The position numbers and the translations under genes were made by a program. The notes beneath the pieces are model-generated. The model searched no databases and was not told where the DNA came from. It was given only the letters and a program-made list of their open reading frames with translations. DNA of 64,000 nt from Eledone cirrhosa (Eukaryota): assembly GCA_964016885.1 (NCBI GenBank), contig OZ024749.1:21452001-21516000 (forward strand), given 5' to 3'. Each line of letters opens with the position of its first letter. Positions within the stretch are counted from its first letter, which is position 1. Shown here piece after piece: positions 5,265 to 42,350 of this stretch.

Positions 5265-6283
5265 CAGGATTACGTTTTTTCCTTTTTTCGACTTTTTCAT
5301 TTTTCGATATCTTCATTTTTTCGATTTTTGAGGGTTAGGGTTTAGGGTTAGGGTTTAGGGTTAATATTAGGGTTAAGTTTAGGGTTATGGTTAGGGTTAC
5401 GGTTAGGGGTAGGGTTTGTGTTTAGGGTTTAGGGTTTAGGGTTAGCGTTAGGGTTAGGGTTAGGTTTAGATTTAGCGTTAGGGTTAGGGTTAGGGTTATT
5501 GTTAGGGTTAGGTTTAGTGTTAGGGTTAGGGTTTATGGTTAGGGTTAGGGTTAGGGTTAGGGTTAGCGTTAGTGTTAGGTTTACGGTTATAGTTAGGGGT
5601 AGGGTTTGTGTTTAGGGTTAGGGTTAGGGTTAGGGTTAGGGTTAGGGTTAGGGGTAGGGTTAGCGTTAATGTTAGGGTTAGGGTTAGATTTAGCGTTAGG
5701 GTTAGGGTTAGGTTTAGTGTTAGGGTTAGGTTTAGTGTTAGGGTTAGGGTTTAGGGTTATGGTTAGGGTTAGGGTTAGCGTTAGGGTTAGTTGTAGGATT
5801 AGCGTTAAGGTTAGGGTTAGGTTTAGCGTTACTGTTACGGTTAGAGTTAGGGTTAGGGTTTAGGGAAAGGGTTAGGGTTAGGGTTAGGGTGAGGTTTTAT
5901 TCATTTTTTCTATTTTTTCATTTTTCGATTTCTTCATTTTTCGATTTTTCGATTTTTTTGATTTTTTCATTCTTTCATTTTTTCAACTTTTTCTATTTTT
6001 TCGATTTTTAGGGTTAGGGTTAGGGTTAGGGTAAGGGTTAGTGTTAGGGTTAGGGTTTTTTCGATTTTTCATTTTTTCGATTTTTTGATTTTTTCATTTA
6101 TTCGAATTTTTCATTTTTTTCGAATTTTATATTTTTTTGATTTTTTCACTTTTTCTATTTTTCGATTTTTTTCGATTTTTCGATTTTTTCGATTCTTTCA
6201 TTTTTTCATTTTCTCAATTTTTTAGCGTTAGGGTTTGGGGTTAGGATTAGGTTTAGGGTTAGTGTTAGTGTTACGGTTGGAGA

Positions 6284-6318
<35 letters not shown>

Positions 6319-7040
6319 ATTAATTTTTTAAATTTTTTCGATTTTTTAAATTTTTCGATTTTTTCATTTTTCGATTTCTACATTTTTCTACTTTTCGATT
6401 TTTTTGGATTTTTTCATTCTTTAATTTTTTCAATTTTTTCGATTTTTTCGATTTTTAGAGTTAGTGTTAGGGTTAGGGTTAGGGCTAGGGTTAATGTTTT
6501 TTCGATTTTTCGTTTTTTCGATTTTTTCATTCTTTCATTTTTTTCGAATTTTTTTTTTGATTTTTTCACTTTTTCTATTTTTCGATTTTTTCGATTTTTT
6601 CATTTTTTCATTTTCTCAATTTTTTAGCGTTAGGGTTTTGGGTAGGGTTATCGTTAAGGTTAGCGTTAGGGTTTAGGGTTAGGATTAGGGTTATGGTTAG
6701 TGTTCGTGTTACGGTTATAGTTAGGGTTAGGGGTAGGGGTAAGTTTAGGGTTAGGGTTAGGGATAGCGTTAGTGTTAGGGTTAGGGTTATGGTTAGGGGT
6801 AGGGTTAGCGTTAAGGTTAGGCTTAGGTTTAGGGTTACGTTTTTTCCTTTTTTCGAATTTTTCATTTTTTGATTTCGTTGAGGGTTAGGGTCTAGGGTTA
6901 ATGTTAGGGTTAAAGTTAGGGTTATGGTTAGGGTTACGGTTAGGGGTAGGGTTTGTGTTTAGGGTTAGGGTTAGGGTTAGGGGTAGGATTAGCGTTAATG
7001 TTAGTGTTAGGTTTAGCTTTAGGGTTATGGTTAGGGTTAA

Positions 7041-7071
<31 letters not shown>

Positions 7072-8320
7072 GGTTAGGGTTAGCGTTAGGGTTAGGGTTA
7101 GGTTTAGATTTAAGGTTTTTTCATTTTTCGGATTTTTTAAATTTTTCGTTTTTTTCGATTTTTTCGATTTTTCATTGTTCCCTTTTTGGGATTTTTCGAT
7201 TTTTTCGATTTTTTCAATTTTTTAGGGTTAGGCTTAGGGGTATGGTTAGGGTTACTGTTTAGGGTTTAGGGTTTAGGGGTAGGGTTAGGGTTAGGTTTAG
7301 GGTTACGGTTAGGGCTCAGTATTTAGGGTTTAGGTTAAGGATTAGTGTGAGGATTAGGGTTAGGGATAGTGTTAGTGTTACGGTTATAGTCAGGCTTAGG
7401 GTTAGGGTTTATGGTTAGGGTTAGGGTTAGGGGTAGGGTTTGTGTTTAGGGTTTAGGGTTTAGGGTTAGCGTTAGGGTGATGGTTAGAGTTAGGTTTTGG
7501 GGTAGGGTTAGCGTTAATGTTAGGGTTAGGGTTAGATTTAGCGTTAGGGTTAGGGTTAGGGTTATGGTTAGGGTTAGGGTTAGGGTTAGGGTAGGATTAG
7601 CGTTAAGGTTAGGGTTAGGGTTAGGGTAGGATTAGCGTTAAGGTTAGGGTTAGTGTTAGGGTTAGGGTTAGGGTTAGGGTTTTTTCGATTTTTCGTTTTT
7701 TCGATTTTTTGATTTTTTCGTTTTTTCGAATTTTTTTTTTTGATTTTTTCACTTTTTCTATTTCTAGATTTTTTCGATTTCTTCATTTTTTCAATTTCTC
7801 AATTTTTTAGCTTTAGGGTTTTGGGTAGTATTATCGTTAAGTTTAGGGTTAGGGTTAGGTTTAGCGTCAGGGTTTAGGGTTAGGATCAGGGTTAGAGTTA
7901 GTGTTAGTGTTATGGTTAGAGTTAGGGTTAGGGTTAGGGTTAGGGTTAATGTTTAGGATTTACGGTTTAGGCTTAGGGTTAGGGGTAGGAGTAAGTTTAG
8001 GGTTAGGGTTAGGATTAGGGTTAGCGTTAGGGTTAGGTTTAGGGTTATGGTTAGGGGTAGGGTTAGCGTTAAGGTTAGTGTTATGTTTAGAGTTACGTAT
8101 TTTCCTTTTTTCGAATTTTTCATTTTTTGATTTCTTCATTTTTTAGACCTTTCGATTTTTTTCGATTTTTTCATTTTTTCATTTTTTCGATTTTTGAGGG
8201 TTAGGGTTAGGGTTTAGGGTTAGCGTTAGGGTTAGGGTTAGGTTTAGGGGTAGGATTAGCGTTAATGTTAGTGTTAGGGTTAGATTTAGCATTAGGGTTA
8301 GGGTTAGGGTTAGGTTTAGT

Positions 8321-8356
<36 letters not shown>

Positions 8357-8884
8357 GGTTAGTTTTAGGGTTAGTGTTAGGTTTAGAGTTAAGGTTTTTT
8401 CATTTTTTCGATTTTTTCAATTATTCGACTTTTTCGATTTTTTCATTTCATTATAAAAATCTTTTTCGATTTTTTCATTTTTCCCTTTTTCAAATTTTTC
8501 GATTTTTTCGAATTTTTCAATTTTTTAGAGTTAGGGTTAGAGGTATGGTTAGGGTTACTGTTTAGGGTTTAGGGTTTAGGGTTATGGTTAGGGTTATGTT
8601 TAGGGTCATGGTTAGGGTTTAGGTTAAGGATTAGTGTTAGGATTAGGGTTAGTGTTAGTGTTACGGTTAGAGTCAGTCTTAGGGTTAGGGTTTAGGTTTA
8701 GGGTTAGAGTTAGGGTTACGTTTTTACCTTTTTTCGATTTTTTCATTTTTCGATTTCTTTATTTTTTCGATTTTTCGATTTTTTTAGATTTTTCATTTTT
8801 TCGATTTTTGAGGTTTAGGGTTAGGGTTAGGATTAGGGTTAGGGTTTAGGCTTAGGGTTTAGGGTTAGGGTTTAGGGTTAGGGT

Positions 8885-40174: not shown

Positions 40175-40207
<33 letters not shown>

Positions 40208-41156
40208 TAGGTTTAGGGTTAGAGTTAGGGTTAGGGTTAGGGTTAGTGTTAGTGTTACGGTTAGTGTTACGGTTAGAGTTAGGGTTTGCGTTAGGGTTAG
40301 GATTTAGGGTTAGGGTTAGGATTAGTGTTAGGGTTACGTTTTTTCCTTTCTTCGATTTTCTCATTTTTCGATTCACTTTTTCGATTTTTCGAATTTTTCG
40401 ATTTTTTCATTTTATCATTTATTGATTTTTGAGGGTTAGGGTTAGGGTTAGTGTTAGGGTTTAGGGTTAGGGTTTAGGCTTAGGGTTTAGGATTAGGGTT
40501 AGGGTTAGGATTTAGGGATAGTGTTAGGGTTAAGGTTTGGGTTAGGATTTAGGGTTAGTGTTAGGGTTAGGGTTAATTTTTTTTTTCGATTTCTTCAATT
40601 TTTCGATTTTTTAGATTTTTTCATGATTTCAATTTTAAAATTTTTTTTCATTTTTTCATTTTTTCATTTTTTCATTTTTTTATTTTTTCATTTTTTCATT
40701 TTTTCATTTTTTCATTTTTTCATTTTTTCATTTTTTCATTTTTCCCTTTTTTCAATTTTTTAGCGTTCGGGTTAGGGCTATGGTCAGGGTTAGTGTTTCG
40801 GGTTTAGGGTTTAGGGTTTGGGTTAGGTTTAGGTTTAGTGTTAGGGTTAGGGTTAGGGTAAGGGTTAGGGTTTAGGAATTAGGGTTTAGGTTCAGGGTTA
40901 GGGTTAGTGTTAGTGTTGCGGTTAGAGTTAGGTTTAGGGTTAGGGTTAGGATTACGTTTTTTCCTTTCGATTTTTTCATTTTTCGATTTCTTCATTTTTT
41001 TCGATTTTTCGAATTTTTTAGATTTTTCCATTTTTTTATTTTTTTGATTTTTGAGGGTTAGGTTTAGGGGTAGGGTTAGGGTTTAGGTTTAGGGTTTAGG
41101 GTAAGTGTTAGGGTTTAGGGTTAGTGTCAGGGTTAAGGTTAGGGTTAAGATTAGGT

Positions 41157-41189
<33 letters not shown>

Positions 41190-41271
41190 TAGGTTTAGGG
41201 TTAGAGTTAGGGTTAGGGTTAGGGTTAGTGTTAGTGTTACGGTTAGTGTTACAGTTAGAGTTAGGGTTTGC

Positions 41272-41302
<31 letters not shown>

Positions 41303-42350
41303 ATTAGTGTTAGGGTTACGTTTTTTCCTTTCTTCGATTTTATCATTTTTCGATTCACTTTTTCGATTTTTCGAATTTTTCGATTTTTTCATTTTATCAT
41401 TTATTGATTTTTGAGGGTTAGGGTTAGGGTTAGTGTTAGGGTTTAGGGTTAGGGTTTAGGCTTAGGGTTTAGGGTTAGGGTTAGGGTTAGGGTTTAGGGT
41501 TAGTGTTAGGGTTAAGGTTTGGGTTAGGATTTAGGGTTAGTGTTAGGGTTAGGGTTAATTTTTTTTTCGATTTCTTCAATTTTTCGATTTTTTCGATTTT
41601 TTCATGATTTCAATTTTAAAATTTTTTTTCATTTTTTCATTTTTTCATTTTTTCATTTATTCATTTTTTCATTTTTTCATTTTTTCATTTTTCCCTTTTT
41701 TCAATTTTTTAGCGTTCGGGTTAGTGCTATGGTCAGGGTTAGTGTTTCGGGTTTAGGGTTTAGGGTTTGGGTTAGGTTTAGGTTTAGTGTTAGGGTTAGG
41801 GTTAGGGTAAGGGTTAGGGTTTAGGAATTAGGGTTTAGGTTCAGGGTTAGGGTTAGTGTTAGTGTTGCGGTTAGAGTTAGGTTTAGGGTTAGGGTTAGGA
41901 TTACGTTTTTTCCTTTCGATTTTTTCATTTTTCGATTTCTTCATTTTTTTCGATTTTTCGAAATTTTTAGATTTTTTCATTTTTTAATTTTTTTGATTTT
42001 TGAGGGTTAGGTTTAGGGGTAGGGTTAGGGTTTAGGGTTAGGGTTTAGGGTAAGTGTTAGGGTTTAGGGTTAGTGTTAGGGTTAAGGTTAGGGTTAAGAT
42101 TAGGTTTATGGTTAAGTTTATGGTTAGGGTTAGGGTTAGTGTTTAGGGTTTTGGGTTTAGGGTTGGGGTTAGGGGTAGCGTTAAGTTTACGGTTAGGGTT
42201 AGCGTTAGGGTTAGGGGTATGGTTGGAGTTAGTGTTTAGGGTTTAGGGTTTAGGGTTATGGTTAGGGTTAGGGTTAGGTTTAGTGTTAGGGTTAGGGCTA
42301 GGGTTTAGGATTTAGTGTTTAGGGTTAGGGTTAGGGTTAAGGTTAGGGTT
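32675..42350 (+). repeat. ~9.06 kb higher-order repeat, copy 4 (carries an internal ~0.95 kb duplication; colinearity lost near 42.35 kb)
   Basis: Markers gggaaaggg (33064), gggctcag (~34514) and gttagggctagggtttaggatttagtg (~42291, matching ~14171) are present. After ~42350 the sequence follows a different module order. Confidence 0.88.
40180..42110 (+). repeat. ~0.95-0.98 kb tandem duplication unique to HOR copy 4
   Basis: ggaatt occurs at 40875/41824 and tgcg at 40287/41269. After ttaagattaggtttag (~41157) the sequence jumps back to the module at ~40185. Confidence 0.85.

What the first reader, a model, noticed from the sequence alone, without database searches (positions are those of the whole stretch)
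5468..42350. Centromere-style higher-order repeat (~9.06 kb x4) built from telomeric-variant modules
Seen: neighbouring modules differ visibly, but modules ~9.06 kb apart are almost identical (periods 9083, 9060 and 9064). Established: diverged monomers with homogeneous multimers is the HOR architecture of alpha satellite, and telomere-like repeats form (peri)centromeric arrays in some plants and rodents. Inference: the current unit of amplification is multi-kb, pointing to unequal exchange, break-induced replication or rolling-circle copying rather than telomerase or slippage.
Basis: partly seen in the sequence, partly recalled or inferred. Interest (0 to 1): 0.7.

Follow-up and report, generated by a model that had tools for sequence, protein, structure and literature searches.

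The report
Local repeats in interstitial telomere satellite
The four near-identical 9-kb copies are real, but they are one small patch of a 518-kb telomere-like satellite inside a chromosome of a cephalopod, probably an octopus; the patch likely grew by stepwise mis-aligned repair rather than being a centromere unit, and fresh telomere repeats at some neighbouring breakpoints hint that telomere-building machinery may help such arrays grow.

Summary
Observation confirmed exactly: four copies with periods 9083/9060/9064, about 99% identical, 26 modules each. The alpha-satellite/centromere reading is not supported. The run is 7% of a 518-kb single-locus interstitial array of degenerate TTAGGG blocks alternating with T-rich microsatellite blocks. 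Modules have no fixed length, and 21 other local tandem runs have periods of 0.7-11.5 kb. Shared variants switch partition along the unit (0111, then 0011, then 0001; no 0101 or 0110). This fits one founding duplication plus two one-unit out-of-register exchanges, not one rolling circle. New: five of the six longest perfect TTAGGG runs in the array are copy-specific additions, four breakpoints in all counted with a sixth site below, three sites at tandem-duplication junctions; the 9-kb run has none. Closest known: Arabidopsis ITR-1R mosaic arrays and maize local HORs. Centromere function is untested. An earlier scan note reported block-duplication growth of another telomere-like array in this genome (e1-9519545), not this one.

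The parts
1..64000 (+). Whole window is interior to one composite satellite (degenerate TTAGGG blocks alternating with T-rich 8-9-mer blocks), G000:C9 ~21,286,011-21,803,571
5468..14550 (+). Copy 1 of the 9.06-kb unit (mosaic A1 B1 C1)
14551..23610 (+). Copy 2 (A2 B1 C1)
23611..32674 (+). Copy 3 (A2 B2 C1)
32675..42350 (+). Copy 4 (A2 B2 C2), with an extra ~1-kb tandem duplication
14229..14544 (+). 316-bp piece at the founding junction, 98.4% identical to an internal module (10,974-11,289); inferred templated insertion, repeated at the ends of copies 2 and 3
19470..20060 (.). Approximate interval of the inferred first exchange (unit offsets ~4,950-5,500), where sharing changes from 0111 to 0011
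   Evidence: inference
31500..32000 (.). Approximate interval of the inferred second exchange (unit offsets ~7,900-8,400), where sharing changes from 0011 to 0001
   Evidence: inference
40172..42110 (+). ~0.95-0.98-kb tandem duplication inside copy 4
49822..63200 (+). Separate 5,895-bp tandem duplication (x2.3), 4 substitutions in 6,667 columns; very young or an assembly over-expansion
1..5000 (+). Older, more diverged ~3.1-kb duplication left of the run

Best explanation
The 9.06-kb x4 run is a local higher-order repeat inside a single 518-kb interstitial mosaic satellite of degenerate TTAGGG and T-rich microsatellite blocks, and it likely arose by one complex tandem duplication followed by two one-unit, out-of-register homologous exchanges (unequal sister exchange or break-induced replication). 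Shown: copy positions, mosaic variant sharing, many other local periods, single locus, interstitial position. Inferred: a break-prone telomere-like array is repaired against mis-aligned neighbours, so the period at any place is whatever the last duplication copied; the 9.06-kb length has no function. Inferred with less confidence: the array was seeded by telomeric repeats added onto a Helitron-derived (TAGGC)n tract, and some breaks are still patched with new telomeric repeats before copying resumes.
For: Of 8,171 aligned columns, 133 vary; 41 clustered sites were dropped (mostly the mis-aligned tail of copy 4) and 92 kept: 0111=35 (33 below offset 5,000), 0011=16 (all at offsets 5,503-7,932), 0001=21, other singletons 20, 0101=0, 0110=0. 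'Old' pairs differ by 0.7-1.1% in all three segments and 'young' pairs by 0-0.3%, as two diverged copies expanded to four predict. Both ends fade into 92-96% alike modules and the founding junction holds a 316-bp templated module, like the 'complex tandem duplications' of Arabidopsis mutation-accumulation lines (10.1101/2025.06.02.657473, passages). 22 distinct tandem runs of 0.73-11.5 kb cover 33% of the array, plus a ~51-59-kb duplication. Similarity falls with distance and the two ends share 2% of k-mers. Junction motifs: 224 of 224, 17 of 18 and 47 of 47 genome-wide matches lie in this array.
Against: The three A2 segments form a star (8, 4 and 6 private variants, none shared), so the two later steps were close in time or one complex event; a single burst plus a 2.4-3 kb gene conversion also fits. 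Unequal exchange and break-induced replication leave the same trace and were not separated. One assembly only; short-read contigs confirm module sequence (pieces up to ~110 bp) but not the 9-kb order. The Helitron link rests on adjacency at one edge: no Helitron body or ends lie in the 590 kb read, and the T-rich unit is common outside Helitrons.
Confidence: 0.72

Rival explanations
1. Single burst (rolling circle or one re-replication event) added two identical units to a two-copy array, then a 2.4-3 kb gene conversion overwrote segment B of copy 3.
For: Star-like relation of copies 2-4 in segment A; rolling-circle amplification is a proposed route for ITS growth (PMC6410037, passages).
Against: One circle gives a single switch point (pattern 0001 or 0111 in B), whereas B shows 16 sites of 0011. 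Copies 3-4 are not more alike in B (7 differences) than copies 1-2 (4), so the conversion would have to follow at once. No inverted or fixed-junction runs longer than ~6 copies in the array.
Confidence: 0.12
2. The array, or this run, is the functional chromosome-specific centromere of C9, and the HOR reflects kinetochore-linked homogenisation.
For: Large, almost transposon-free (one 58-bp foreign piece among 47 uncovered stretches), AT-rich, 38% along the chromosome. Octopod C-bands are mostly centromeric (PMC6160780, passages). Similar large degenerate arrays lie inside C2 and C7.
Against: No dominant HOR, no fixed monomer, no symmetric layering; sequence confined to one chromosome. In Arabidopsis the comparable mosaic arrays exclude CENH3 (10.64898/2026.05.10.723265), and in maize local HORs are unrelated to CENH3 (PMC13011684). 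A pericentromeric position remains open.
Confidence: 0.1
3. The four copies are an assembly artefact (haplotypes stitched in tandem or over-expanded reads).
For: Neighbouring 5,895-bp and 11,475-bp duplications are nearly identical (4 and 3 substitutions); the assembly has telomere blocks placed inside scaffolds, two samples beside N gaps.
Against: Every copy has private variants and 12-20 indels; stitching two two-copy haplotypes predicts pattern 0101, seen 0 times; no N in 590 kb.
Confidence: 0.05
4. The array is the scar of an end-to-end chromosome fusion.
For: A TTAGGG-to-CCCTAA switch exists near the left edge; the three largest scaffolds are 379-443 Mb, so fusions in this lineage are plausible (inference).
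Against: The reversed block is a 3.3-kb inversion of the composite itself, 513 kb keep one orientation, the right edge runs straight into ordinary sequence, and the shared subtelomeric element found beside 13 of 13 near-perfect telomere blocks has no hit in the 590 kb.
Confidence: 0.08

Closest known systems
Arabidopsis ITR-1R / ITR-4L 'CenTel' interstitial telomeric domains (bioRxiv 10.64898/2026.05.10.723265; parts 1-3 of 4 read)
   Same: Single-locus ~0.5-Mb interstitial array of mosaic units (telomeric island plus non-telomeric spacer), several different HOR blocks, local amplification, block duplications; telomerase healing proposed there for island growth.
   Different: CenTel units have a sharp 530/600-bp period and a centromeric-satellite spacer, and their big duplications are tied to transposons. 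Here module length varies widely, the spacer is a dispersed T-rich microsatellite, the array is almost transposon-free, and fresh perfect tracts lie at some junctions.
Local HORs of maize CentC/knobs and Arabidopsis CEN178 (PMC13011684, passages; 10.1101/2025.06.02.657473, passages)
   Same: Locally confined, low-copy patterns (~3 occurrences), no dominant class, made by homology-directed repair, not tied to centromere function.
   Different: Those average ~4 fixed-length monomers; this one is 26 variable modules (9 kb).
Human alpha-satellite HOR arrays (recalled; contrasted in PMC13011684)
   Same: Multimer far more uniform than its modules.
   Different: No fixed monomer, 4 copies instead of hundreds to thousands, 7% of the array, one chromosome.
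Heterochromatic ITS of rodents and other vertebrates; telomerase-inserted short ITS (PMC6410037 and 10.1101/2022.10.31.514589, passages)
   Same: Large interstitial TTAGGG-like block amplified in place; perfect repeats inserted at apparent breaks.
   Different: Composite with a second microsatellite; heterochromatin and position relative to the centromere unknown; insertions here fall inside an existing array and at duplication junctions.
HORs among variant telomeric repeats at Arabidopsis chromosome ends (PMC11406999, passages)
   Same: Variant telomeric units copied as blocks.
   Different: Those are terminal and made of a few units; this is interstitial and multi-kb.

Membership tests
Alpha-satellite-type centromeric HOR array | Multimers much more alike than neighbouring monomers | tested here: met
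   0.99 versus 0.59-0.76
Alpha-satellite-type centromeric HOR array | Monomer of near-fixed length | tested here: not met
   Module median 356 bp, 5-95% range 158-907, CV 0.60 over 1,226 T blocks
Alpha-satellite-type centromeric HOR array | One HOR reiterated many times and dominating the array | tested here: not met
   4 copies, 7.1% of 517.6 kb; 21 other tandem runs
Alpha-satellite-type centromeric HOR array | Same satellite family on most chromosomes | tested here: not met
   Junction motifs confined to C9
Alpha-satellite-type centromeric HOR array | CENP-A occupancy | not testable with these tools
   No chromatin data
Local HOR (maize/Arabidopsis type) | Locally confined, few occurrences, not found elsewhere in the array | tested here: met
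Local HOR (maize/Arabidopsis type) | No HOR class dominates; similarity is local | tested here: met
Long interstitial telomeric repeat domain (ITR / het-ITS) | Large block of telomeric and variant repeats away from chromosome ends | tested here: met
   21.29-21.80 Mb of a 56.8-Mb scaffold whose left end is (CCCTAA)n; 35% of bases in exact TTAGGG
Long interstitial telomeric repeat domain (ITR / het-ITS) | Heterochromatic, usually pericentromeric | not testable with these tools
   No chromatin or cytology data
Fusion-type ITS | Head-to-head telomeric arrays flanked by subtelomeric sequence | tested here: not met
   One orientation over 513 kb; no subtelomeric element in 590 kb
CenTel satellite | Spacer derived from the neighbouring centromeric satellite | tested here: inconclusive
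   Spacer type occurs as small stand-alone tracts on at least 7 other scaffolds; the centromeric satellite of this genome is unknown
Non-autonomous Helitron (dispersed family carrying (TAGGC)n) | 5' TC, 3' hairpin plus CTRR, inserted between A and T | tested here: met
   5 of 5 3' ends followed by T, 3 of 3 5' ends A|TC among 11 loci scanned; 2,475 3'-end matches, control 0; definition PMC4067079
Non-autonomous Helitron (the 1-kb remnant at the array's left edge) | Helitron body and termini present | tested here: not met
   Only the central-repeat part matches (~80%); no body or hairpin in 590 kb
Telomerase-inserted ITS (the fresh tracts) | Perfect repeats added at a site where the paralogue has few, with loss of target bases | tested here: met
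   35 units versus 36 bp with one variant; 26 units versus 30 bp with two variants; 45 versus 5+2; 27 versus 1+1
Telomerase-inserted ITS (the fresh tracts) | Dependence on telomerase rather than slippage or copying from a telomere | not testable with these tools
   One tract holds (TTGGGG)13, a proximal-telomere variant that a TTAGGG template would not make

The most novel reading that the evidence does not exclude
Telomere addition drives growth of an interstitial satellite: breaks inside the array are extended with new telomeric repeats (by telomerase or by copying a real telomere), and the new tail invades an upstream TTAGGG block and primes copying, giving 1- to 55-kb tandem duplications with a fresh telomeric seam. 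The array itself began as such a healing event on a Helitron (TAGGC)n tract.
Probability: 0.3. Interest if true: 0.65.

Novelty: new variant of a known kind. Interest (0 to 1): 0.38.

Why it matters
The 9-kb HOR itself is an ordinary product of satellite turnover, though an unusually clean record of it: the order of exchanges can be read from four copies. The wider array is a mosaic interstitial telomeric domain in a cephalopod, a group for which my searches found no sequence-level account of such arrays or of centromeres (listings only). How telomeric islands inside chromosomes are fed with new repeats is open; the Arabidopsis study proposes telomerase healing without showing it in the parts I read. 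Here copy-versus-paralogue comparisons show fresh tracts at dated breakpoints, which makes the idea testable with long reads from several individuals.

Tried and rejected
1) Helitron origin of the T-rich blocks: the octamer does expand inside Helitron central repeats, but only 1 of the first 9 independent pure-octamer loci had Helitron marks, 0 of 9 loci of the mixed T-rich type matched the Helitron body, and three family-diagnostic words occur 0 times in the array. Rejected as unproven. 2) Doubling of a two-copy block (pattern 0101): 0 sites. 3) Centromere-like symmetric layering: not seen. 4) Fusion scar: see rivals. 5) Variant-sharing test on the 5.17-kb x3 run failed because my anchor hit a nested 2.3/2.8-kb sub-period; no result. 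6) Read support: three runs of one coded sample gave 315-365 short contigs on copy 2, no information on copy order or copy-specific alleles; this sample may be the source of the assembly. Three other organisms gave 9-15 short low-complexity hits, no evidence of conservation. No RNA run held enough of the stretch to test expression. 7) COX1 loci were fetched but not used. 8) The automatic 'junction' label over-calls where flanks have several equal paralogues; I relied only on cases checked. 9) No protein, structure-prediction or RNA-family tools were used on the array; it was not tested for ORFs. 10) Earlier-notes look-ups near this place and by sequence returned nothing.
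Full report
OBSERVATION. The window is entirely low-complexity: about 50 TTAGGG per kb on the + strand, none on the - strand, alternating with T-rich blocks. Copy 4 has an extra ~1-kb duplication and ends near 42,350. Copies 1-3 are 99.05-99.53% identical. T-block identity is 0.99 at module lag 26 and 0.59-0.76 at non-multiples; 32-mer recovery is 0.81 at lag 9060 and at most 0.069 at 15 control lags.

CONTEXT. The window is G000:C9:21,452,001-21,516,000 in a 3.0-Gb assembly. 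C9 is 56.8 Mb and begins with ~10 kb of (CCCTAA)n. A hemocyanin reading frame matches single units 4yd9_C and 1js8_A best (659 and 650 bits, next single units 460 and 372); from recall these are squid and octopus, so the host is a cephalopod, probably an octopod (earlier AI notes agree). I read 590 kb without gaps. The array runs from ~21,286,011 to ~21,803,571 (517.6 kb), holds 1,226 T-rich blocks, module length median 356 bp with CV 0.60, and TTAGGG is 43% of G-block units. Apart from one 58-bp foreign piece near the left edge it has no insertions (47 uncovered stretches inspected). Three exact junction motifs give 224 of 224, 17 of 18 and 47 of 47 genome-wide matches inside it; a gapped motif gives 287 of 287 forward matches inside. 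The one outlier is a fragmented copy at C9:18.12 Mb.

THE 9-KB RUN IS ONE OF MANY. It is 7.1% of the array. Chaining finds 22 distinct tandem runs with periods of 0.73-11.5 kb and 2-6 copies, covering 33% of the array; 50% lies in some high-identity duplicate. A ~51-59-kb duplication is also present. Similarity between 20-kb windows falls with distance and the two ends share 2%. This is the local-HOR pattern of maize and Arabidopsis (PMC13011684, passages), not the alpha-satellite pattern (recalled).

HOW THE FOUR COPIES AROSE. Of 8,171 columns 133 vary; I dropped 41 clustered sites (one of them 0011, most in the mis-aligned tail of copy 4) and kept 92. Copy 1 stands alone below offset 5,000 (33 of 35 sites of pattern 0111). 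Copies 1+2 oppose 3+4 at offsets 5,503-7,932 (16 sites). Copy 4 stands alone beyond. Patterns 0101 and 0110 do not occur. Old pairs differ by 37-41 in 5,000, 21-22 in 2,450 and 8-9 in 850 bases; young pairs by 10-14, 4-7 and 0-1. Inference: a founding duplication gave two copies that drifted ~0.85% apart, then two one-unit exchanges at different offsets gave A1B1C1, A2B1C1, A2B2C1, A2B2C2. The founding junction contains a 316-bp copy of an internal module (98.4%), a mosaic like the complex tandem duplications seen in Arabidopsis lines (10.1101/2025.06.02.657473, passages). One rolling circle would give one switch point. Against my reading: copies 2-4 form a star in segment A, so the later steps were close together, and a burst plus a long conversion is not excluded. 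Unequal exchange and break-induced replication cannot be told apart here.

FRESH TELOMERIC TRACTS. Perfect run lengths fall geometrically (ratio 0.44), predicting 0.08 runs of 16 or more units; 6 exist, at 6 places counting the 17-unit run with its adjoining 13-unit run as one (16, 17, 26, 27, 35, 45). Three lie at tandem-duplication junctions: 45 units in the 11,475-bp duplication, where the parent sites have 5 and 2; 27 units in a 1.3-kb duplication, parents 1 and 1; and 17 + (TTGGGG)13 + 13 units between the copies of the ~51-55-kb duplication. Two replace short degenerate stretches whose variant units are lost (35 units for 36 bp, 26 units for 30 bp). One (16 units) is unresolved. Among 27 automatically found two-copy junctions, 3 carry a run of 10 or more (45, 27, 12) against a null mean of 0.185 and a maximum of 3 in 2,000 draws; 24 do not, and the threshold was chosen after seeing the data. 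The 9.06-kb run has no run above 7 units. End-joining after telomerase action is expected to leave such insertions (10.1101/2022.10.31.514589, passages). Alternatives: length-dependent slippage with small deletions; copying from a real telomere, since TTGGGG runs mark proximal telomeres on C5, C7, C9, C10, C13 and C18; and, for the near-identical 11.5-kb pair (3 substitutions), an assembly error.

ORIGIN. At the left edge ~1 kb of (CCTAG)n/(TAGGC)n with A/T-rich spacers runs directly into 1 kb of degenerate TTAGGG, sharing TAGG at the seam. That repeat is the central repeat of a dispersed family with canonical Helitron ends (definition PMC4067079, passages; Helentron-borne tandem repeats are known in oyster, PMC7492417, passages). 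The subtelomeric element found beside 13 of 13 near-perfect telomere blocks is absent from the 590 kb, and there is no head-to-head structure at scale. So de novo addition on a Helitron remnant fits better than a moved or fused chromosome end; this is inference from one junction. The T-rich block type is a separate dispersed microsatellite, mostly not in Helitrons; how it joined the array is unexplained.

CENTROMERE? Untestable here. Octopod C-bands are mainly centromeric and TTAGGG is the reported telomere (PMC6160780, passages). Other large degenerate arrays without the T-rich partner lie in C2 (5 of 5 samples across 242.03-243.59 Mb) and C7 (2 of 2 samples), with their own 1-4 kb local periods. 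The closest described system, Arabidopsis ITR-1R (484 kb, mosaic units, several HOR blocks), sits beside a centromere but excludes CENH3 (10.64898/2026.05.10.723265, parts 1-3 of 4; its extended data were not seen and may bear on junction tracts). I put functional centromere at ~0.1; a pericentromeric position is open.

NOVELTY AND VERDICT. Ten literature searches (top listings seen, nine papers opened) showed no account of such an array in a cephalopod or of fresh telomeric seams at satellite duplications; the library lacks most subscription papers. The HOR is real and ordinary; the array is a new variant of mosaic interstitial telomeric domains; the seams are the part worth following. Interest 0.38.

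Noticed in passing
G000:C9:21,768,468; 21,661,331; 21,594,661-930; 21,350,599; 21,526,876: Fresh perfect TTAGGG tracts (26-45 units) at duplication junctions or replacing short degenerate stretches; one includes (TTGGGG)13.
   Followed up: yes
L149-L153 (C2:242.03-243.59 Mb); L154-L155 (C7:29.31-29.37 Mb): Two further large degenerate interstitial telomeric arrays without T-rich blocks, with local 1-4 kb periods and perfect runs up to 27 units.
   Followed up: partly
L081-L098 (C1, C6, C7, C18, C25, C26 and others): Non-autonomous Helitron family (2,475 exact 3' ends) whose central repeats are (TAGGC)n plus A/T-rich spacers that can expand into (TTTTTTCA)n.
   Followed up: partly
L140-L148 (C21:27.144 Mb, C8, C10, C12, C23, C1, C222): Stand-alone irregular T-rich microsatellite (T5-7CA / T4-6CGA), 0.2 to 3.5 kb, often sitting between unrelated sequences as if inserted; origin unexplained.
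   Followed up: partly
L099:4600-9000 (C9:18.118-18.123 Mb): Fragments of the composite in both orientations, sharing a short-repeat insertion junction with the inverted block at the array's left edge, 3.2 Mb away.
   Followed up: partly
G000:C9:21,287,487-21,290,800 and 21,316,620-21,316,950: A 3.3-kb and a 0.33-kb inversion, the only reversed parts of the array.
   Followed up: partly
window 49,822-63,200; G000:C9:21,757,251-21,779,950: 5,895-bp and 11,475-bp duplications that are almost identical: very young events or assembly over-expansion.
   Followed up: partly
L156, L157, L159-L166: Near-perfect telomere blocks with the shared subtelomeric element lie inside scaffolds (C2, C3, C5, C7, C11, C12, C14, C21), two samples with N gaps: probably mis-scaffolded chromosome ends.
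   Followed up: no
L003 (C9:20.6 Mb), L004 (20.8 Mb), L100 (18.10 Mb): Unrelated tandem arrays (about 62-bp, about 25-bp and an AT-rich composite) within 3 Mb of the array; the neighbourhood is satellite-rich.
   Followed up: no
L074, L075 (starts of C2 and C3): These scaffolds begin with non-TTAGGG simple repeats rather than telomeres.
   Followed up: no
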